This document shows positions 1 to 8,485 of a DNA stretch of 64,000 bases, in pieces. The position numbers and the translations under genes are program-made. Every line of letters starts with the position of its first letter. Position 1 is the stretch's first letter. Origin of the DNA: Sarea resinae (Eukaryota); the NCBI GenBank assembly GCA_026026165.1, contig JAPEUD010000104.1:1-64000 (forward strand), written 5' to 3'. Under the pieces are notes generated by a model, which was not told the DNA's origin, did not search any database, and saw only the letters and a program-made list of their open reading frames with translations.

Positions 1-127
1 CCTAACCCTAACCCTAACCCTAACCCTAACCCTAACCCTAACCCTAACCCTAACCCTAACCCTAACCCTAACCCTAACCCTAACCCTAACCCTAACCCTA
101 ACCCTAACCCTAACCCTAACCCTAACC
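1..127. repeat. Telomeric repeat array (CCCTAA)n, left chromosome end
   Basis: About 21 perfect CCCTAA units from base 1, ending ...cctaacc|gttccc. This is the canonical TTAGGG telomere of filamentous ascomycetes. Confidence 0.99.
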
Positions 128-1466
128 GTTCCCAAGTCGCATCGTGAATTGCCCATCCGCGCCACTTCGCAAGATACTGTTCATGGCGATTGTTGCCACG
201 TCCCACCATTTTGCTGCGGATGATCCGCTCGACTTCCCATTCCTGGTAGTCGATATCTTGTCCGATGCCTTCGTTGTGCTCTTTCTCTTTCTCGTTCTCG
301 TTCTCGTTCTCATCATCATCATCATCCTTATCGTCGTCGTCATCGTCATCGACCCTGAGGGGAGAGAGAGAAGCCGAGCGGGAGGGGGTGGGGCTGGGCA
401 GGGGAGGGGTTTCTTCTTCGTGGCGGTGGGATGCGAGGTAATTAAACATCTTGTCCTGCATACCCTCTGACATCTCGCTGTCGTCGTGTGTCAAGTAGTA
501 GGACAAGTCCTTGGGCTCGGCCTCGTCGGTTCCGGCCCCAGTCCCATCTTCTGCCGTTTCCATTTCGGTGTCCACGTCCGAAATTTGGGTCGTATCGCCT
601 TTAAGCTCCGATCTTGCATCATTCATTTCCATTTCGTCTCCATGGGAGCTCTCCTCCACGAACGAGCTGCTTCGATCCTCGTCGACGATACGGTCCTGAG
701 CTGCCGCGGCCGCCACCGCCGCTTCTTGATCCTCCCGGAGCTTTCTCGCGGTCCTGTCTTGTTCCTCCAATTGAGCCAGCCAGAGATGACTTGGGAACAT
801 GGGAGTCTCGTCCGCCATTGTCAGTCTCTCCCGTACCAACGTCAATCCTCGGTGGCATTCCTCGAGAGTGATCCGCGGGTCTGAACCCTGAGCTACAGGC
901 TTGATGGCACCGAGTACGATCCTCAAAGCCTCCCAATTTCTCCGTGCTCTCTTCAGAAACTCCAGGCTATGGACATGTGGTATCTTGCCACGTGACTCTT
1001 CGGTTTCTTGGATCGTCTCGATGGCATCGCGGCAAAGCTGTGTGGCGACGTACAATCCACTGGGATCGTCATAGTGATTCAGGTGATTTCTGATCCGGCC
1101 GTCGTTCTGGACCTGTTCTCAGGTCAGCTCGAACAAGGATTCTCGGGAACTCTGACATACCTCTAGCTGACGCGTTTCTACCATGGTAATGATCTTTTTC
1201 AATTCGTCCTTTTCTTGTCCGTCTGGTAGAGAAACCCAGATGTCTGGTGTCATCAGTGAAAGAGCGTCCAGTGACATCTTCAACAAGCCACAATTTCGAA
1301 CCACTGCGTATCTTCGCTGTTTCCGAGTGGTTGCTTGCTCCCGCTCTCGATACAATTCGTTGACAACGGTGCAAAGGTGTAGCACGTCTGCCATATCCTG
1401 CGCCAGCTTAGGGTGATCGACTTTTCGAAAAGGTCCGTCGAATTTTTCAGGAAGGGAGGCTGCCAT
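128..1466 (-). CDS. Chromodomain-containing protein, 3'-truncated by the telomere (no stop codon)
   Basis: Exon 1 is 1466-1161. A 48-nt phase-0 intron at 1160-1113 (GTATGT...GCTGAC...ACAG) removes the TGA that ends the listed ORF. Exon 2 is open from 1112 to base 1. The ~430-aa product has an acidic D/E tract, then YQEWEVERIIRSKMVGRGNNRHEQYLAKWRGWAIHDATWE (chromodomain, ~248-129), then R and (LG)n from the telomere. Confidence 0.85.
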
Positions 1467-1787
1467 AGTGCCGAGATTCGTACTTGATCGAAAAGTTGGT
1501 GATCGCGCTGACGAGCAGGTTGACGAGGATGATCAGAGAACTACACGATGTCAAACATCGGTAGGAATGAGAGCATCAATCAAAATCAATGGTAGTCGTC
1601 AGAAGTGATGCAATGTGTGCGGGTTTTCCGGATGCAAGACCACCTTTAGGGTTTCAAACCCCGAGACACACAGGTCACTCTGAGTGAATATCCGTCGAAC
1701 GTCTCATTTGGGTGTTGTCCGGTATTCGACTATACTTCCGGTAGTTTTGACAAGATTCGTTGAACGTCTCATCTACTTGGGTCATCT

Positions 1788-1978
1788 GACGTTTGACTTC
1801 GACTTCTCTGACGTTTGATATCAACTTCCTCCGACGTTTGACATCAACTTCATCAGACGTTTGACTTCGACTTTGACTTCGACTTCGACTTTGACTTCGA
1901 CTTTGACTTTACCAGACGTTTGACTTCGACTGCATCTCACGTTTGACGTTCGACCTCATCAGGCGTTTGCCTTTCGAC
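1788..1978. repeat. Degenerate tandem repeat, ~22-24-nt unit GACGTTTGACTTCGACTT.. with an internal (GACTTY)n expansion
   Basis: Several copies of gacgtttga(c/t)(t/a)tc(g/a)actt, with a run of gacttc/gacttt hexamers at 1863-1910. It lies in the divergent intergenic region between two subtelomeric genes. Confidence 0.85.
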
Positions 1979-2516
1979 TATCCGCTCAGCGTACCATCCA
2001 TCATCACCCGTACGAGTTGTTCAGTCAAGGCTCACTGCTCCTCTCATACTCGACCTGATCATCTACGTCACGATTGCCGTTGATCTTGATTCCCCTCCAT
2101 CCTACCGATGTTTGACATCGTGTAGTTCTCTTATCATCCTCCCCAACCTGCTTGTCAGCCCGATCACCAACTTTACGAGCAAGTACGAGTCTTCCGTGCG
2201 ACGAGTCCACGAGCTTCAGTCGGCGAAGTCTAGCCCACGATTCCCGGTCCACGGATTCACAGCCTTCTAAATCCTCTTGTAAGTCTTCCATGATCAAGTG
2301 TCATTTTTCGTCTTTCCTTTTACCTGACATGTTCCGTGTCTTCCATAGTCATAATCGTGATGGCCACGCAAAAGGCAGCAACGACCAAGCGGGTTACAAG
2401 CTCAGAACAAGAGTTAATAAGGTTCCAAAATTATTGTTAAGTGAAATAAAGGAAGTTATTATCGTGAGGAGCGAGACGATCATCACGTCGGTATCTCGAA
2501 GATCTTTTTCCGTCCG

Positions 2517-3228
2517 ATGAAAGAGTACCAGTCCAAGGGCCTCCAATTGATATACGACCAGAGTCTTCATGCGGATTTCACCGTGTCAGCAACCATCCAC
2601 CGCAGCCCCGAGACCAGCAATTTTGCCGTTGCACTCGATTGTCTTCAAATCACCCCGACAGTCCCCACCGAAAAGTCGGTTGCGCAATTCCTCTATCCAT
2701 CCACGAATTTCATCATGGGATTCAGGATGCTCAGCAATAGTCGAAGCCTCGAGGTCTGGAGGACCGCAAGGGTTCCGAATACGGCCGAGGTAGATCCATG
2801 ACAAATCAAGGCAATGATCTTTACTGACAAGATAACAGGTCGAGTCCGACATATGGTCCCTGCAATTCTGCAGAACGACGAGGCCGGCGGCCGAACAGGC
2901 CGTGGCAATGTGGTATCGGCTCGAGTCAATCCTGAGAAAGACGACCAATAGCCAGCTCGAGTACGTCAACGTCACCCGCGCCAGCATCAACAACAAGGAC
3001 ATCGCAGCAGACCGCTATAATCTGCGGGGTCAGAAGACACGAACGCCTCAAGAAACTTCAGGAGGATCAATGACGTGGGTGGTTCACAACAAGGAGGGCC
3101 CGCCAAAGGGTTACGAGTTCACGAATAGGCTCGCAAATCCCAAGCTCGTGGCAATGATGGAAAAGCTAGACTTGAACGACGACGACGTGGATCCGGATAT
3201 TGAAGGTAGCGAAAGAGAAGACGAATGA
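2517..3228 (+). CDS. Hypothetical protein (~220 aa; possible PH/EVH1-like fold)
   Basis: ORF 2517-2789 joins ORF 2902-3228 in frame through a 49-nt intron at 2790-2838 (GTAGAT...TACTGAC...AACAG). The true 5' end may lie further upstream (the frame is open back to ~2445). Confidence 0.65.
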
Positions 3229-4014
3229 GTTGGAAATAGCGACAGAGAGTTTCTGCGGGATGTGAGGTCATCATAAGAATGCCTGGGAACGTTTTGCTAC
3301 GGAGAGGCTTTTGAGGGCGAGCATGGCGGTGTGCATAGACAAGCTGTCGTTGAGAGTCGCTTCTTTTCTCGATGAGATTTCGTTTGCGAGCCAGATTCGA
3401 GAAGCCCATATGGCACGATGACGAACGAATCAATTTGATGCTTTCCGATATCTTGCCTTGAACATATTGAGATGATCTAGCTAATGAGGTGTGCGTTGAC
3501 TAATCAAGCACGTGACTAGTCTCAGGCAGTCATCAATTACCGTGTGTGTAGTAGTGACAATCAGCTAACCCTGTACTGCGAGACTAGAAAGAGTAGATCA
3601 CAACTTGCAACAGGAATGTTATTCTCTCGACCCACGCCAGCCCTTCTTGCAAAACGCCGCACCAGATCCCGCACACTAAGGTAGGTATCCTCCTGGCTTC
3701 ATCATTATTTGCAACACAGTTAGCGCGCTTCCTTGCCTCCCTCGATGGCCCTTCCACTAACCCAAGCCCTTAATCTGTCCTTGACGCTCTCTAGATCTGT
3801 AGCAAGAAGCAGAGCGGAGTCCTGATACATATCAGCAATCATAAATCCTATCACACTAGGCAGGCAAAAATCCGACTAAGCAACAATCCTATCAATCAAC
3901 AACAGAAATCCCACCTCTTAAACGCACAAAGTTTAGCTCCGCTGCAAATTCTATCCTTTCTCTGTTAAATACTGCTACGAAAGTCACAATGCCACTGGTG
4001 GCACTTTTACAATA

Positions 4015-6680
4015 TCAAGCGGATCTTGCCTAATCGGTTGCCTGCTTAGCGGCTTTATCACTAGGTATCGTGCTGCTTGCTTGACGATACTCTAGTCGCG
4101 CCTGTTTGAAAAGTCGTTCCCTGTGTGAAAGCTGTTCAATCGTCGGTCCAGAGGATAGAGCTAACTCGACAAGGCTTTGTGCAGCAACTCTGGCATTTTC
4201 TGGAATAGCCACTGATGTAGCTTTTTCGCTGACCCACAGTTCTATCCCCTGTGCTCAGAAGGAAGTCAACAGCGCGAGTGAAAACTTCTGTATCCAATGT
4301 CAGCATTAATACGTATTGGTATGACTTACTTCGCCTGTGGCTGTCATCTTCTCTAATTCTTGCCTGACTAGAGGCTTGAGATTTAAGACCCCTGATCGCT
4401 CAAACCCCTTCGCTAGGTTACAGTCCACTTGATTAATAGCGTATTTTGATTTTCGTGCAAGCTTCGCTGTCTCTCTTGCCTTCTATTGCCCTAAGCCCTT
4501 TTTAATCTGATCTTCTCTCTATAAGGGGTGTAATTCTCGAAGGCGCTCAAGGTAGACTAGGCTGTAATCAGTCAAGGCATTAAAGACATCTAGCAGCGTT
4601 AGGCCAATCCATTCCAAACCCTGCACGTCTGTATCCTCGAGACCTACAGTGTCATCAGAGACCTATACTTGAGGTTGGAAAACAGTTGGAAACCCTGGTA
4701 GTCGTGGTCTGAAAAGAACAGAAAGGGCAACAAGAGGTTTATGTCATCCTTTTGCAGCAAGCACAGAAACTCTCGCGTTGCGCAGTCGGCGAATCCAGGC
4801 GTCTGCCAGGATCGTTAGAATCCCTGCTTCAACCTAGAAAACCAAGAGGCACTTACTATGACTATGATCATTCCTTGGAGTTCCTTCCGATGCTCTTGAA
4901 ACGACGTTCTAATATTTCCATGCTCGGTCACGATTATCCCTCTCAACTGCCGGTCGACATCTCTTGTCGCTAGCTTCTCGACTATGTCAGGGATCAGGCA
5001 CCGTCCGCGAAGCTTTGTCTTGGTTGTCTTTTTGCTGCCCTTGCCTCGAAAGATAAAGATGTCGTCAACAACGTCTGCTATGATGCTGACTCTCTCAGGA
5101 AGATAAATCTCTCCGGTCGATTGTGCTAAAAACCCAAAGGCTTTTGAGTGCACCCTAACTGTAACAGCCTAATTATCGATGCGTTGCCGGATTTAGACTT
5201 AGGTGAAGTGTTTCTCTAGGCGGAGGAAGTATCTAGCTTTTCGAAACTTCACTGCTTCTTAGGCTCCTAGCATGGCTATGATCTGTTTTCCAACCGCCAG
5301 AAATTGGAAGAGCTATAGCAAGTTGGCTTCAGTGGTCCGCAAGGTTATTTCCCCTCTATGAAGCGGTTGCCCGCAGCTCTCGCTGTGGCCTCTGCGGCTA
5401 GCCTTCCTCTATTGCCAAAGTTCCCTGAATGCCTCTGTATGACAACGATGAATTGCAGGAAATTAGGAGGTTGCAGAGGTTCAGAGGCAGCGGCTGTTGG
5501 CTTTTCGTCCCCTTCCTCTTCTTTGGCCTTGATGGCTACGCCGTTATCATTCGGATTGTTCTCCACGAATTGGCAGAGCGAATCGACGAATTGCCTAATA
5601 CAATCGTCTTCTGGAGGGGGGATTAGGAGCGGGAGGCGGTGGACTGTGTGACTGTGGCGGCGCAGACTAGGGGGTGTATGCCTGTAGAGAGGGCGAATGT
5701 GCTGGTTCTACTGCTTCTGCTGTCGCTGCCGCTTCTGCTGCTCGTCTCCTCACCTGTCTTCCGCTGTTTCTAAAATTGCCAGAGTGCCTCTGTATAACCA
5801 CAATAAACCGTAGGACGTCTCGGTTCCTCTGTCAAGGCTAAGGCCTTATCAGTAGCCAAGTGCATGTGCTAGGGTGCTAGCACTTAGAGCTCTCTCGCTC
5901 CCACTACAGCCCTTTGCTGTCTCGATATACAACGCCCTTGCTGCCCTCGCTGTCGCCTCTGCATGCGGCCTACCGCCTTCGCTAAAACCACCTAAGTGTC
6001 TCTGTACTACCACGATAAACCGTGGGACGTCTTCTGTCCTCTCAGTCCTAGGTTAAGGCGTCCTAGTTTAAGGCGCAGGAACTATCGTCGCTAACACTTC
6101 TGCTGCCTTCTGCTCTTCTTCTTCCTTGTCCTTGATTGCCCTATCCTTACCTCCAGTGTAGCCATCTTCTTTTTCTGCCTTGATAGGGCTGTCTTAGAGG
6201 TGTCTGGCAGGGGAGGGTAGTCTGGTGACAGCAGCAGTGGACTGGGTGATAGTGGCGGCCGAGATTTGCCCTTCCGCCCTCCTAAAAGCTCCTAGAATGT
6301 CGCTGCTAGCGTCATCTCAGTAGAAGGTTGCGACGCGGGAACTATTAATTTTAGAACCCCTCTCGCTGTCTTGACATCGTTGTCCTCAGCCTTTATAGCC
6401 ACTGCTCAGTCAGGTCAGGCACTAGGCTGTGCCAAAGTTAGCGGGGGTTTTGTGCCACTAGAGCCGACAGAAACAGCGACTAAGGATAGGAACAGGAGTG
6501 GCATGAACAGGCGGATGCTAAGAGGTTATTCACTACATCTTTGTCTTTCGGGTTGTTCTTAAGTCCTTGGTCTTAGTAGCCCTATGCTCTTCTTTTGCCT
6601 TTATTGCGAAATATTTGGCTGTGATAGCTACGTCCTTGGCCGGCTTAGGAAGGATAGAAGGATAGAAGGGGATGTGGCAT
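4015..6680 (-). pseudogene. RIP-inactivated, divergent Spo11/DNA topoisomerase VI subunit A-like gene with a repeat-rich N-terminal extension
   Basis: Reconstructed minus-strand reading: LFQFLAVGKQIIAMLGA*EAVKFRKARY (Tyr at 5229-5231) ...HFT*V*IRQRIDN*AVTVRVHSKAFGFLAQSTGEIY ...GRCLIPD ...RGIIVTEHGNI ...MIIVI|TPGFADCATREFL ...LPFLFFSDHDYQGFQLFSNLKYRS ...LEWIG ...PLVRQELEKMTATGE|KFSLALL. Introns are at 4856-4803 and 4329-4288. Most stops are TAG/TAA derivable from CAG/CAA/TGG. Frameshifts occur near 4620, 5350 and 5670. Start and end are approximate. Confidence 0.8.
5370..6050 (-). repeat. Three dispersed copies of a ~35-codon repeat within the Spo11-like pseudogene
   Basis: ~5370-5460 NFLQFIVVIQRHSGNFGNRGRLAAEATARAA; ~5720-5830 DVLRFIVVIQRHSGNFRNSGRQVRRRAAEAAATA; ~5925-6045 DVPRFIVVVQRHLGGFSEGGRPHAEATARAA. 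Confidence 0.8.
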
Positions 6681-7180
6681 CGGTAGGCTAGGTGTGTCGC
6701 AGGGCATAACTAGCCGTGAGAAAGGAAACAAAAGTGGCATCGACAGGCAGATGCTGAGACGTAATTAGCCACATGTTTAATTTAGGGGTTGCTCTCTACT
6801 AACTCGATTCCTCGGCATATACAGCCACATCCTCACCGCCGATATTATCATCTTCAGACCAGGACCAGACAATTTAAACCATTTGGACCACTAGACCAGT
6901 AAACGATCAACAGCGCTGCTCTCAAAGACCAGGACTTCCAAGTTGGCCTTTTCCGCTTCTCTTCTCGCAGTCGCCTATCAGAGCAGTGTCTCGTAGGTTT
7001 GATTTGGCAGAAGCTAAAGAATCACCTTTTTTTCTCTCGCATCTTCTCTTTAGTAGTCGAGTAGGTTTGGTCATGTCCAGAAGTATCAGAGTGGTTGTTG
7101 CTTTAGACGCTGCAATCGTTGTCGATTCTGTCGCGGCGCAAATGTCGATCAAGACCCTCTGGATAGAGATAAGGGTACAG

Positions 7181-7303
7181 ATTGACGGTGAATTGACGGT
7201 GAATTGACGGGTGAATTGACGGGTGAATTGAAGATGTGACTGGAATGCTACTTGCGACTTCCGACTTCCGACTTCCGTCCGGCTCTACCACGGCTCTACC
7301 ACG
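7181..7303. repeat. Cluster of short tandem duplications at the subtelomere/core boundary
   Basis: (ATTGACGG[G]TGA)x4 at 7181-7230, (CGACTTC)x3 at 7255-7275 and (CGGCTCTACCA)x2 at 7280-7301. Confidence 0.85.
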
Positions 7304-7408
7304 AGCGCCAAGGATTCTAGATCAGAAATACCACGAGCTTTGCAAATAATCACCGTCGTATGGTGTACTCCGGAGTACTGTTACTGCAAGCAAATCTCTG
7401 CCATCAAG

Positions 7409-8485
7409 ATGCCTCAAATACTCAAATTAGGCGTTGCGCAGGCGCGCACGCGTTCGACGAGGTCGGAAACGCTGCAGGCCCTTGCAGTGACAACGCAGAA
7501 AGCGGCATCGCGGGGAATAAAACTGCTGCTGTTCCCCGAGGCGTATCTGGGTGGGTATCCCAGGACGTGTACTTTTGGGGCGGCAGTGGGTGCGCGTGCG
7601 CCAGAGGGTCGGGATCAATTCTTGCACTATTTCAGAGACGCGGTGGACCTGGGTGACACGCCGTCGGGCGCGGGTGATGCGTGGGTAGAGAGAAGACTGC
7701 CGCTACCAAAGGACGGTGGGATGAGGGGAGATGGGACGCGAGAAGAGCTCGAGCGCATCGCCAAAGCGACGGGTGTGTTCATCATCGTGGGCCTTGTAGA
7801 GCGTGCGGCCGGCTCTCTGTATTGCGGCGCCGTGTACGTGTGTCCGAGAGAGGGTATCATCGGGAAGCGGCGCAAGGTGATGCCTGTACGTAGTTTGATT
7901 CGATTTTTTTCCATGTGCTGACAGATCCAGACTGGCAGCGAACGCCTCGTCTGGGCACAGGGCTCGCCGTCGACGTTAAAGGCCGTCACGACAACAATCT
8001 CTGGCGTGAAATTGACTCTGGCTGCGGCAATCTGCTGGGAGAACTTCATGCCCCTGCTGCGTCACTCGCTGTATTCTCAAAATGTCAACCTCTACCTGGC
8101 GCCAACAGCGGACGCGCGAGAGACGTGGTTGTCCTTGATGCGGACGGTGGCGGGTGAGGGACGGTGCTTCGTGTTGAGTGCCAACCAATGCGTGAAGAAG
8201 AAGCATCTTCCGCCGTGGGTAATCAGTGAGGCTTCGACCGCGGTTCAGGCCTCGTCGCCCGAGGACGAGGATTTTGTCTGCCGCGGAGGGTCGTGCATCA
8301 TCGGTCCTCTTGGCGAGGTGCTTGTTGATCCTGTGTGGGAGGCTGAGGATGAGCTAATAGCGGTGGAAGTTGATTTTGACGAGTGCGAAAAGGGACGGCT
8401 GGATATGGATGTGGCGGGAAGTTATTCCAGGAATGATTCTTTCAAGTTGACGGTGGAAGGATTAGATCTAAACCCTCCTCCTTGA
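7409..8485 (+). CDS. Nitrilase (carbon-nitrogen hydrolase family)
   Basis: Catalytic triad motifs [11 protein letters not shown] (E), [17 protein letters not shown] (K) and [11 protein letters not shown] (C), plus the C-terminal [10 protein letters not shown]. Intron at 7886-7930 (GTACGT...GCTGAC...CCAG). Confidence 0.95.

What the first reader, a model, noticed from the sequence alone, without database searches (positions are those of the whole stretch)
128..7303. Possible telomere-linked module: chromodomain reader + orphan protein + Spo11-like DNA cutter
Seen in sequence: the whole ~7.2-kb subtelomere consists of three intron-containing, non-housekeeping genes plus repeat arrays at 1788-1978 and 7181-7303. 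I see no RecQ telomere-linked helicase, reverse transcriptase, DDE transposase or tyrosine recombinase motifs. Inference: a methyl-lysine reader beside a Top6A-type transesterase suggests a unit that targets heterochromatin or chromosome ends and makes DNA breaks. It could be an undescribed mobile element or a subtelomere-remodelling system. The telomere-healed break inside the unit is at least consistent with local breakage. This is a hypothesis from gene adjacency only.
Basis: inference. Interest (0 to 1): 0.75.

Follow-up and report, generated by a model that had tools for sequence, protein, structure and literature searches.

The report
Dead Spo11-like gene cluster at telomere
A fungal chromosome end carries the decayed remains of three neighbouring genes (a relative of the DNA-cutting enzyme Spo11, an adaptor-like protein and a chromatin reader) that also sit side by side, intact, in related fungi, which hints at an undescribed DNA-breaking system aimed at silent chromatin.

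Summary
Telomere repeats (1-127) cap a 7.2-kb block without housekeeping genes. Gene 1 has a C-terminal chromodomain that the telomere cuts off. Gene 2 is not an orphan: it is a remote homolog (hhalign E 3.7e-7, controls clean) of the N-terminal PH-like domain of a small family of chromodomain proteins. The "Spo11-like cutter" belongs to a divergent Top6A/Spo11 paralog family (catalytic Tyr, Toprim E and DxD conserved), but here it is a pseudogene with 9 in-frame stops and 1 frameshift, plus decayed duplications of its 5' part.

The adjacency is not chance. In two unrelated metagenome loci, an intact Spo11-like gene lies 0.3 kb and 5.6 kb from a gene that fuses the gene-2-type domain to a chromodomain. 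The other locus variants lack this partner. The PH-like domain's best structural match is the REC114 PH domain, a Spo11 accessory factor; the model is of low confidence and the match ties with CARM1.

I found no element ends, no known transposase, no telomere link elsewhere and no expression data. Verdict: a dead copy of a real, undescribed gene association. Its mechanism (heterochromatin-directed DNA breakage) is inferred, not shown.

The parts
1..127 (.). Telomere repeat (CCCTAA)n, chromosome end
   Evidence: TRF gives period 6, 21.2 copies, 100% matches. Contigs of run X1, the likely source sample, join the repeat to unique DNA at about 137, at the same depth as the neighbouring DNA.
128..1466 (-). 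Gene 1: exon 1 at 1466-1161, intron 1113-1160, exon 2 at 1112-128. It has a helical N-terminal part, an acidic linker and a C-terminal chromodomain that the telomere cuts off. There is no stop codon; the frame runs into the repeats.
   Evidence: Pfam Chromo E 2.5e-8, covering profile positions 1-34 of 53. NCBI's partial protein P0002 uses the same splice. The only database hit is the gene itself. Pfam finds nothing in the N-terminal part. The AF2 model is all-helical with mean pLDDT 49.6.
1474..2192 (.). Inverted repeat (arms 1474-1571 and 2095-2192) around tandem arrays at 1788-1978. It lies between the divergent starts of gene 1 and gene 2.
   Evidence: The arms are 98 nt and 90% complementary, with 523 nt between them. 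The alignment extends inward to about 125 nt. TRF finds arrays of 23, 12 and 24 nt units.
2517..3228 (+). Gene 2: exon 1 at 2517-2789, GT..AG intron 2790-2838, exon 2 at 2839-3228 (220 aa). It is a remote homolog of the PH-like N-terminal domain of the P0065/P0067 chromodomain family. A possible broken N-terminal remnant lies at 2360-2413.
   Evidence: hhalign against A4: exon 2 gives prob 84%, E 7.6e-6. Exon 1 aligns collinearly at E 0.087. The spliced protein gives prob 92.9%, E 3.7e-7 over 124 columns. Controls: 61 shuffled or reversed versions reach at most 28.4 and 50 other window ORFs at most 24.5, against 53.9 for the real protein. phmmer finds only L002 (3.4e-5) and L010 (8.5e-5) besides the gene itself.
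4030..5660 (-). Pseudogene of a Top6A/Spo11-like paralog family. The catalytic Tyr, Toprim Glu and DxD codons are still present, but there are 9 in-frame stops and 1 frameshift. One intron position (about 4812-4860) is shared with the L010 gene.
   Evidence: Family profile positions 66-287 match 4620-5345 (182 bits) and positions 288-422 match 4174-4620 in another frame (49 bits). The best relative is P0003 from the same species, 51% identical.
5373..6795 (-). Decayed partial duplications of the pseudogene's 5' part
   Evidence: Self-BLAST pairs 5373-5460, 5758-5844 and 5940-6059, and 6491-6559 with 6727-6795, at 69-77% identity. Repeat families D2 and D5. Repeated peptide motifs appear in the minus-strand frames.
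7181..7303 (.). Three short tandem arrays at the border with the housekeeping region, just upstream of a nitrilase-type gene
   Evidence: TRF: 12 nt x 4.4, 7 nt x 4.0 and 11 nt x 2.2. Pfam CN_hydrolase matches ORFs 7232-7921 and 7922-8485.

Best explanation
The 7.2-kb subtelomere is the decaying remnant of a lineage-specific gene cluster. The cluster occurs in working form in related ascomycetes, mostly lichen-forming.

It has three parts:
(i) A divergent Top6A/Spo11 paralog. This is a transesterase that would cut DNA through a tyrosine in a winged-helix domain and a metal-binding Toprim domain.
(ii) A PH-like adaptor domain.
(iii) An HP1-type chromodomain that would read methylated histone H3.

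Elsewhere (ii) and (iii) are fused in one protein encoded beside the Spo11-like gene. In this window they are two divergently transcribed genes (gene 2 and gene 1) whose 5' regions mirror each other.

Inferred mechanism for intact copies: the chromodomain docks on heterochromatin, the PH-like domain recruits or controls the Spo11-like dimer, and the dimer breaks DNA.

In this window the system is dead. The cutter is a pseudogene, the chromodomain was truncated when a broken end was healed by telomere addition, and gene 2's N-terminus looks damaged.

Shown: the homologies, the recurring neighbourhood, and the pseudogene and truncation states. Inferred: any binding, targeting or cutting.
For: The Spo11-like family:
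- 61 cluster representatives at E<=1e-3.
- 24 of 24 scanned pass Pfam TOP6A-Spo11_Toprim.
- The family profile hits M. jannaschii Top6A (1d3y) at E 8.9e-15 across both the winged-helix and Toprim domains. The family's near-invariant Tyr aligns to the second Y of REAYY. Yeast Spo11 (8urq) scores 7.8e-5.
- E221, D275 and D277 are invariant and Y113 nearly so.
- There is more than one copy per genome. Sarea has two annotated full-length paralogs besides this pseudogene. Single metagenome assemblies hold loci of two groups.

The window copy is dead: 9 stops and 1 frameshift. Three stops align to Trp and one to Gln in relatives. TpA/ApT is 1.11 against 0.57 +/- 0.06 in the rest of the window.

The partner:
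- L010:11824-13122 encodes a protein with a C-terminal Chromo domain (E 7e-8), 237 nt downstream of an uninterrupted Spo11-like gene.
- L002:2937-4355 encodes a relative (E 6.6e-40) 5.6 kb upstream of another.
- L002 and L010 share no DNA similarity.
- Gene 2 is homologous to that family's N-terminal domain.
- Searching the window plus 155 kb of loci in six frames, the family profile's best hits outside true members are gene 2 exon 2 and gene 1's chromodomain.

Genes 1 and 2 are head to head, with a 98-nt, 90% complementary inverted repeat in their 5' regions.

The partner's chromodomain matches CBX5/HP1 (E 1.9e-8).

Its N-terminal domain models as PH-like. The REC114 PH domain is the first hit in Foldseek (E 8e-5), in VIA on Foldseek's list (Z 10.6, 114 of 117 aligned) and in a Foldseek-independent scan of 48,161 chains (Z 10.3, 122 of 125 aligned).
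Against: - The partner is missing from the other locus variants examined: L009, L008 and L005/L006. Pfam found no Chromo among 146 ORFs in those loci except the one in L010. hhalign on 131 ORFs of L005, L008 and L009 reached at most 26.3. L009 is the same locus as L002 in another haplotype and lacks the partner.
- Gene 1 shares only the chromodomain with the partner family. Its presence could still be coincidental.
- A first tblastn with exon pieces found nothing. The gene 2 homology therefore rests on profile methods and phmmer.
- The metagenome loci come from a few related assemblies, so independence is limited.
- The structural model is weak: mean pLDDT 52.8, about 70 in the domain. REC114 ties within 1 Z unit with the CARM1 PH-like domain. 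No Rec114 Pfam family matches, even at E<=1.
- The word-based search listed no member of the partner family from Sarea.
- The neighbours of the two intact Sarea paralogs could not be read, because no genome is held.
- There are no expression data.
Confidence: 0.6

Rival explanations
1. Mobile element. The Top6A-like transesterase serves as the cut-and-join enzyme of an undescribed transposon or homing element. The chromodomain partner steers it into heterochromatin or chromosome ends. The window holds a dead copy.
For: - The family is multi-copy and patchy in distribution.
- The partner and a Ulp1-like gene are present in some haplotypes and absent in others (L002 against L009 and L008).
- Neighbours typical of accessory regions recur: Ulp1-like C48 peptidase, single-domain AAA ATPase, NACHT-ankyrin.
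- This copy is pseudogenised and subtelomeric.
- The Capronia coronata member has locus tag A1O1_00005, which suggests it lies near a scaffold end.
- Type IIB topoisomerase relatives on mobile elements are known in prokaryotes and viruses (Topo VIII, Mini-A; passages read in PMC9665070 and PMC11302465).
Against: - No terminal inverted or long direct repeats bracket the genes in the window, L002 or L010.
- Gene order and orientation differ between loci.
- Paralogs are only 30-50% identical as proteins and share no DNA similarity.
- Depth across the window region is even and single-copy in the source run.
- No relative turned up in viral contigs.
Confidence: 0.15
2. Ordinary subtelomeric debris. 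Three unrelated lineage-specific gene relics lie side by side by chance. The recurrence elsewhere only reflects that such families gather in the same accessory regions.
For: - All three units here are damaged.
- Gene 1's N-terminal part has no relative anywhere I searched.
- Half of the locus variants lack the partner.
- No related locus carries telomere repeats.
Against: - The partner family is small: 9 clusters in the word-based search of 5.8 billion proteins.
- Even so, a member or remote homolog lies within 6 kb of a Spo11-like gene in three loci without DNA similarity.
- No further member appears in the rest of the 64-kb window or the 155 kb of flanks.
Confidence: 0.12
3. Defence or allorecognition island. 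The Spo11-like protein is a nuclease effector of a fungal immune-type locus, working with the neighbouring AAA ATPase or NACHT-ankyrin proteins, and the chromodomain protein is accessory.
For: - NACHT-ankyrin ORFs lie upstream in L008 and L009. A Cdc48/Vps4-class AAA ATPase lies within 1-2 kb in L002, L009 and L008, and 8 kb away in L010.
- Several family members give weak Pfam matches to JetD_C and DUF2399, which are Toprim modules of bacterial defence systems.
Against: - The window has no AAA, NACHT or Ulp1 remnant in 1-8000.
- The JetD_C and DUF2399 matches lie mostly below Pfam's cut-offs and overlap the stronger Top6A match.
- PF00004-type AAA is a broad family, and adjacency in loci L002, L009 and L008 counts as one event, because these loci are related.
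Confidence: 0.1

Closest known systems
Topoisomerase VI subunit A / Spo11 (type IIB topoisomerase A subunit)
   Same: The family has a winged-helix (5Y-CAP) domain followed by a Toprim domain. The Tyr aligns to the catalytic Tyr region of M. jannaschii Top6A, and the Toprim Glu and DxD are conserved. 24 of 24 members pass Pfam PF21180.
   Different: - Pfam's TP6A_N model fails in 23 of 24 members.
- Motif variants: VEH in place of the usual VEK, and DHD in place of DxDP. The usual forms are recalled, not from a call.
- The family adds an N-terminal region with an LxWR motif and a C-terminal extension.
- Several copies per genome, whereas fungal Spo11 is normally single-copy (established knowledge).
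- No B-subunit-like neighbour was seen.
- The window copy is a pseudogene.
REC114 (Rec114/Rec7) N-terminal PH domain, partner of the SPO11-TOPOVIBL complex
   Same: It is the best structural match to the partner family's N-terminal domain in three searches. Like REC114, the protein is linked to a Spo11 homolog, here through gene neighbourhood. I saw the title and the start of the abstract of PMC9671922 on the REC114-TOPOVIBL interaction in the listing.
   Different: - No sequence similarity is detectable: Pfam at E<=1 gives only Chromo.
- The model is of low confidence.
- The match ties with the CARM1 PH-like domain.
- The protein is fused to a chromodomain and an RGG-rich tail. I found no report of such a fusion for REC114.
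HP1/CBX-type chromodomains, including heterochromatin targeting by chromoviral (Ty3/Gypsy) integrases
   Same: Pfam Chromo matches gene 1 and the partner family. The partner family's best PDB sequence matches are CBX5, CDY and HP1. A chromodomain attached to a DNA-processing enzyme system recalls chromovirus targeting (recalled, not from a call).
   Different: There is no reverse transcriptase or integrase here. The chromodomain sits on a separate small protein. Gene 1's domain lacks its last ~19 profile positions.
Topo VIII and Mini-A (type IIB relatives on plasmids and viruses)
   Same: These are Top6A-like proteins carried by mobile or accessory DNA (passages read in PMC9665070 and PMC11302465).
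   Different: They are prokaryotic or viral. The fungal family has no relative in the viral contig collection, and no mobile-element ends were found.
Subtelomeric gene families such as telomere-linked RecQ helicases
   Same: A lineage-specific, multi-copy, often decayed family found next to a telomere.
   Different: There is no helicase domain. A telomere link is shown for this one copy only.

Membership tests
Top6A/Spo11 | Toprim domain with conserved Glu and DxD | tested here: met
   PF21180 is above its cut-off in 24 of 24 relatives. E221, D275 and D277 are invariant in A2. The same residues are still encoded in the window pseudogene. The window piece alone scores 20.1 bits against a cut-off of 24.1.
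Top6A/Spo11 | Winged-helix (5Y-CAP) domain with the catalytic tyrosine | tested here: met
   Profile A2 aligns to 1d3y residues 6-269 at E 8.9e-15, and the near-invariant family Tyr pairs with the second Y of REAYY. That this Y is the catalytic Tyr103 is recalled, not from a call. Pfam TP6A_N matches only 1 of 24 members, and weakly.
Top6A/Spo11 | Uninterrupted reading frame (a working gene) in this window | tested here: not met
   9 in-frame stops and 1 frameshift when aligned to relatives.
Top6A/Spo11 | Orthology to the single meiotic Spo11 of fungi | tested here: inconclusive
   There are several copies per genome and the family is closer to archaeal Top6A than to yeast Spo11 in the PDB search, which argues for paralogs. 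No fungal genome could be searched for a canonical copy.
Chromodomain (Pfam PF00385) | Match above Pfam's gathering score | tested here: met
   Gene 1 scores 34.1 bits against a cut-off of 25.1. L010 partner: 32.7 bits as the ORF, 32.8 as P0067.
Chromodomain (Pfam PF00385) | Complete domain, including the last strand and C-terminal helix | tested here: not met
   Gene 1 covers profile positions 1-34/35 of 53 and then runs into telomere repeats. The L010 partner covers positions 1-50.
REC114 PH domain | PH-like fold that matches REC114 better than other PH-like domains | tested here: inconclusive
   REC114 ranks first in three searches: Z 10.6 with rmsd 3.9 and 114 aligned, and Z 10.3 with rmsd 4.3 and 122 aligned. 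CARM1 scores Z 9.7-10.0, which counts as a tie. The model's pLDDT in the domain is about 70.
REC114 PH domain | Sequence similarity to Rec114 families | tested here: not met
   A Pfam scan of P0067, P0068 and P0074 at E<=1 lists only Chromo. The PDB sequence search with A3 lists chromodomains only, apart from weak matches near E 0.15.
REC114 PH domain | Binding to the Spo11 complex | not testable with these tools
   This needs a binding assay or a confident complex model of the full-length proteins.
DNA transposon or other mobile element | Defined ends (terminal inverted or direct repeats, target-site duplication) | tested here: not met
   The only long inverted repeat in the window is internal, between genes 1 and 2. 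None brackets the gene sets in L002 or L010.
DNA transposon or other mobile element | Known transposase, integrase or reverse transcriptase | tested here: not met
   None among 81 ORFs of window 1-7400 or 146 ORFs of four related loci.
DNA transposon or other mobile element | Several near-identical copies | tested here: not met
   Depth is even at about 400-440 across the region in the source run. The paralogous loci share no DNA similarity.
Telomere-linked helicase type subtelomeric element | RecQ-type helicase gene | tested here: not met
   No helicase domain among 81 ORFs.

The most novel reading that the evidence does not exclude
Lichen-forming fungi and related ascomycetes carry a second Spo11-based DNA-breaking machine. 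It is a divergent Spo11 paralog working with a REC114-like PH-domain protein that is fused to, or paired with, an HP1-type chromodomain. Breaks would therefore be directed into H3K9-methylated heterochromatin, such as repeats and chromosome ends, which is the opposite of where meiotic Spo11 normally acts. The window shows a dead, split version of this machine sitting at a healed telomere.
Probability: 0.3. Interest if true: 0.85.

Novelty: new variant of a known kind. Interest (0 to 1): 0.68.

Why it matters
Spo11 is known as a single-copy meiotic enzyme whose partners, REC114 among them, decide where chromosomes are broken. A multi-copy Spo11 paralog family that repeatedly sits beside a protein combining a REC114-like fold with a heterochromatin reader would be a natural example of break machinery retargeted by a chromatin-reading module.

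It could bear on how repeat-rich or subtelomeric DNA is recombined, eliminated or invaded in fungi. It would also give a testable pair of proteins for binding, H3K9me recognition and covalent DNA cleavage.

Eight full-text searches (plus 52 and 100 for background) found no description of such a family or pairing. Subscription-only papers and supplements were not covered.

For the window itself the practical message is more modest. The block is a set of broken relics at a healed chromosome end, not an active system.

Tried and rejected
- Whole-genome search of the window's own assembly: no genome is held. The neighbours of the two intact Sarea paralogs stay unknown.
- tblastn of gene 1 and gene 2 exon pieces against the 11 loci: nothing below E 0.28. 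For gene 2 this was later overturned by profile methods and phmmer.
- The search for homologous proteins with alignment A2 returned only P0003, so it gave no list of locus tags. Locus-tag adjacency could not be tested with the names obtained.
- ESM Atlas: no usable hit for gene 1's N-terminal part; for gene 2 exon 2 only scores of 0.85 or less.
- AF2 of gene 1 (P0002, single sequence): pLDDT 49.6, unusable, so not searched.
- Complex prediction of the L010 partner's PH-like domain with the C-terminal 170 residues of the L010 Spo11-like protein: no verdict (score 0.00, controls not run).
- Sequencing runs: no RNA holder is listed; the only holder is the likely source sample.
- Earlier findings of this scan: nothing by place, sequence or words.
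- Viral contigs: no relative of the family.
- The 10-mer of the 1788-1978 array occurs once in L002. About 0.3 is expected by chance (my estimate), so I dropped it.
- Ulp1-like, AAA or partner-family remnants in window 1-8000: none.
- An hhalign run with a pre-built profile failed to parse and was repeated properly.
- Considered and rejected: that gene 1 and gene 2 are halves of one ancestral fused gene split by an inversion. Strand and position do not fit, and gene 1's N-terminal 290 residues are unrelated to the partner family.

Full report
**What the window is.** The window starts with 21 perfect CCCTAA repeats (1-127). The only database hit for gene 1 is a protein of a Sarea resinae metagenome-assembled genome, "hypothetical protein M1819_000533, partial", from a 65,774-base contig. 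So this is one end of a fungal chromosome. From about 7.4 kb onward the window carries ordinary genes: a nitrilase-type hydrolase, an MFS transporter, APC1, eIF2A, Mto1-like, Vps41 and others.

**Gene 1 (128-1466, minus strand).**
- Exon 1 is 1466-1161, the GT..AG intron is 1113-1160, and exon 2 runs from 1112 into the telomere. NCBI's partial model P0002 uses the same splice.
- The C-terminus matches Pfam Chromo (E 2.5e-8, above the cut-off), but only profile positions 1-34 of 53. The reading frame then continues into the telomere repeats without a stop.
- The chromodomain has thus lost its last strand and helix. This fits a chromosome break healed by telomere addition inside the gene.
- Contigs of the one public run that holds this DNA show the same junction. 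Their depth (about 440) is like that of the neighbouring single-copy DNA (about 400). That run is probably the source sample, so it is not independent evidence.
- The N-terminal ~290 residues have no Pfam match, no relative in the word-based search (1 hit, itself, among 4870 candidates) and no Atlas lead. The single-sequence model is helical but of low confidence.

**Between genes 1 and 2.** A 98-nt inverted repeat, 90% complementary, has arms at 1474-1571 and 2095-2192. The alignment extends inward to about 125 nt. It brackets the tandem arrays at 1788-1978. The left arm ends 8 nt upstream of gene 1's ATG. The two genes are therefore head to head with mirrored 5' regions. This suggests a shared, duplicated promoter or leader (inference).

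**Gene 2 (2517-2789 and 2839-3228, plus strand; 220 aa).**
- Pfam and the Atlas give nothing. A first tblastn of its exon pieces against related loci also gave nothing.
- It is nevertheless a remote homolog of the N-terminal domain of a small chromodomain-protein family found later.
- hhalign against a 10-sequence alignment of that family (A4) gives, for exon 2, probability 84% and E 7.6e-6.
- Exon 1 aligns collinearly just upstream, at E 0.087.
- The spliced product gives probability 92.9% and E 3.7e-7 over 124 columns.
- Controls stay far below the real score of 53.9. The maxima are 28.4 for 61 shuffled or reversed versions, 24.5 for 50 other window ORFs and 26.3 for 131 ORFs of three related loci.
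- phmmer with the spliced protein against all ORFs of 60 aa or more from the window and six loci finds, besides itself, only the two family members (E 3.4e-5 and 8.5e-5).
- Upstream, at 2360-2413, a short ORF in another frame resembles the family's conserved N-terminal motif. It is separated from the main ORF by stops and an AT-rich segment. Gene 2's N-terminus may therefore be damaged (read from the sequence; not significant on its own).

**The Spo11-like unit (about 4030-5660, minus strand).**
- A read-through of 4644-5168, with X at one stop, found 61 cluster representatives at E<=1e-3 among 1.84 billion.
- 24 of the 24 that I scanned pass Pfam's TOP6A-Spo11_Toprim model. Only 1 of 24 gives even a weak TP6A_N match.
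- Named members come from lichen-forming fungi (Pyrenodesmia, Variospora, Bacidia, Teloschistes, Gyalolechia, Ramalina), from Cirrosporium, Capronia and Phaeomoniella, and twice from Sarea resinae itself (493 and 415 aa, on contigs of 308 and 239 kb).
- A profile of 25 members matches archaeal Top6A (1d3y) at E 8.9e-15 across both the winged-helix and Toprim domains. The family's nearly invariant Tyr pairs with the second Y of REAYY. Yeast Spo11 scores E 7.8e-5. The Toprim Glu and the two Asp are invariant.
- This is a real, divergent Top6A/Spo11 paralog family that looks catalytically competent.
- The window copy is dead. The family profile aligns to 5345-4620 in one frame (182 bits) and to 4620-4174 in another (49 bits).
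- Outside the two likely introns there are 9 in-frame stops and one frameshift. Three stops align to Trp and one to Gln of relatives.
- TpA/ApT in 3500-7100 is 1.11, against 0.57 +/- 0.06 (maximum 0.70) in the rest of the window. This fits transition-type decay, although the second RIP index is not shifted.
- Upstream, 5373-6795 holds weak (69-77%) partial repeats of the gene's 5' part.

**Does the adjacency recur?**
- A scan of metagenome contigs with the family alignment gave 11 loci. By DNA similarity they fall into four groups plus two short pieces: {L001, L009, L002}, L008 (about 85% identical to the first group), {L003-L006 plus the short L007 at 84%}, and L010; L011 is the other short piece.
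- None has telomere repeats.
- A Pfam scan of 146 ORFs of 110 aa or more from L005, L009, L008 and L010 found one Chromo hit. It lies in a 433-codon ORF that starts 237 nt downstream of the uninterrupted Spo11-like gene of L010.
- That protein defines a family of 9 clusters, one of them from Mycoblastus sanguinarius.
- A further member lies in L002, 5.6 kb upstream of its Spo11-like gene on the other strand.
- L009 is the same locus in another haplotype. It is collinear with L002 only from L002:4772 onward and lacks this member. L008 and L005/L006 lack it too.
- L002 and L010 share no DNA similarity, and their proteins are 30-45% identical.
- Counting the window, a gene with the gene-2-type domain lies within 6 kb of a Spo11-like gene in three loci that are unrelated at the DNA level, and a chromodomain is present each time.
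- In a six-frame search of the window plus all loci (64 kb plus 155 kb), the partner profile's best hits outside true members are gene 2's second exon and gene 1's chromodomain.
- For so small a family this is very unlikely by chance. My rough estimate is well under 1% per locus for a few copies in a genome of tens of megabases.
- Caveat: the metagenome loci come from a few related assemblies, and half of the locus variants lack the partner.

**What the partner might be.**
- Its chromodomain resembles CBX5, CDY and HP1 chromodomains (E 1.9e-8).
- An AlphaFold2 model from the 9-sequence alignment is weak overall (mean pLDDT 52.8). It gives a beta-rich domain with a C-terminal helix at residues about 57-250, with pLDDT near 70.
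- Foldseek's only two hits at E<=1e-3 are both chains of the mouse REC114 PH domain structure (6nxf, E 8e-5). The REC114-TOPOVIBL complex ranks fifth.
- VIA-align on Foldseek's list puts REC114 first: 7qwv Z 10.6, rmsd 3.9, 114 of 117 aligned; 6nxf Z 10.3. The CARM1 N-terminal domain scores 10.0 and EVH1 domains 8.9.
- A Foldseek-independent scan of 48,161 chains again puts 6nxf first (Z 10.3, 122 of 125 aligned), then CARM1 at 9.7.
- REC114 is an accessory factor of the SPO11-TOPOVIBL break machinery (PMC9671922; title and start of the abstract seen in the listing).
- The PH-like fold is reasonably supported. A specific REC114 relationship is a lead, because it ties with CARM1 and no Rec114 Pfam family matches even at E<=1.

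**Other recurring neighbours of Spo11-like genes in the metagenome loci.**
- A Ulp1-like C48 peptidase in L002, L005 and L010.
- A single-domain AAA ATPase of the Cdc48/Vps4 class in L002, L009, L008 and L010.
- NACHT-ankyrin ORFs in L008 and L009.
- None of these has a remnant in window 1-8000.
- Gene order and orientation differ between loci, and no terminal repeats bracket them.

**Reading.** The most likely account (0.6) is that the subtelomere holds a dead copy of a genuine, undescribed gene association: a Spo11 paralog with a PH-like and chromodomain partner. Here the partner is split into two head-to-head genes. The mechanism of intact copies is inferred from the domain functions alone: the chromodomain docks on methylated H3, the PH-like domain recruits or controls the enzyme, and the Tyr and Toprim sites cleave DNA. 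A preprint abstract, of which I saw only the start in a listing, reports that mouse SPO11 can cut DNA without partners (10.1101/2024.11.20.624454). This makes a stand-alone paralog plausible.

The mobile-element reading (0.15) fits the patchy, multi-copy, polymorphic and often broken nature of the family, but it lacks any element ends. Chance debris (0.12) is hard to square with the recurrence. A defence-island reading (0.1) rests on neighbours that the window lacks. Nothing ties the telomere healing to the unit's own activity. A link to telomeres is seen for this copy only, with a hint from the Capronia locus tag A1O1_00005.

**Literature.** Searches for Spo11-like or Toprim families with chromodomain, Ulp1, NLR or Starship terms in fungi, and for Rec114 with chromodomain, found no description of this family or pairing. 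Passages read in two surveys of the Topo VI/Spo11 family do not mention extra fungal paralogs (PMC11302465: 0 occurrences of 'fungi'; PMC9665070: one unrelated mention). Supplements were not examined and subscription-only papers are not covered.

**Verdict.** The window copy is a relic. The association it points to appears new and is worth testing.

Noticed in passing
window 1474-2192: A 98-nt inverted repeat, 90% complementary and extending to about 125 nt, flanks the 1788-1978 tandem arrays exactly between the divergent starts of genes 1 and 2. It looks like a mirrored promoter or leader, or a small palindromic insertion. No clean target-site duplication is seen at its outer edges.
   Followed up: partly
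window 2399-2465: In the contigs of run X1, an AT-rich ~66-nt segment upstream of gene 2's main ORF has a word depth of about 14,800, against about 450 around it. Loose ends lie at both edges. It could be a short repeat shared with very abundant DNA, such as organellar DNA or another organism's.
   Followed up: no
window 2360-2413: A short ORF in another frame begins with Met and contains a KR-x-TSS stretch that resembles the conserved N-terminal motif of the partner family. Stops separate it from gene 2's main ORF. It may be a broken first exon.
   Followed up: partly
L002:5978-6771, L005:19206-20912, L010:8186-10003: A Ulp1-like C48 peptidase with a long N-terminal region recurs within 0-8 kb of Spo11-like genes in three locus groups. 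In L010 it is head to head with the Spo11-like gene.
   Followed up: partly
L002/L009:12016-13372, L008:11774-13159, L010:19091-19891: A single-domain AAA ATPase recurs next to Spo11-like genes. Its best PDB matches are Cdc48 D2 and Vps4 (E 8e-47). NACHT-ankyrin ORFs lie upstream in L008 and L009.
   Followed up: partly
L002:445-4772 versus L009 and L008: Haplotypes or close relatives of one locus differ by several kilobases that contain the chromodomain partner and the Ulp1-like gene. L002:1-445 is 99% identical to L008:7603-8047, which suggests recent rearrangement.
   Followed up: partly
alignment A5, C-terminal columns (for example the L010 Spo11-like C-terminus, P0014, P0029, P0032): Several Spo11-like family members end in a short acidic and hydrophobic motif (roughly D/E-x-x-x-x-A-L-M/V). 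It could be a docking helix for a partner.
   Followed up: no
protein P0036 (Capronia coronata, locus tag A1O1_00005): One family member is the fifth numbered gene of a 4.6-Mb scaffold, so it is probably close to a scaffold end.
   Followed up: no
window 3500-7100: TpA/ApT is 1.11 here against 0.57 in the rest of the window, while (CpA+TpG)/(ApC+GpT) is unchanged at 1.22. The composition differs from the flanks but is not a classic RIP signature.
   Followed up: partly
window 7181-7303: Three different short tandem arrays (12, 7 and 11 nt units) lie back to back about 100 nt upstream of the nitrilase-type gene's start. They mark the border between the subtelomere and the housekeeping region.
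   Followed up: no
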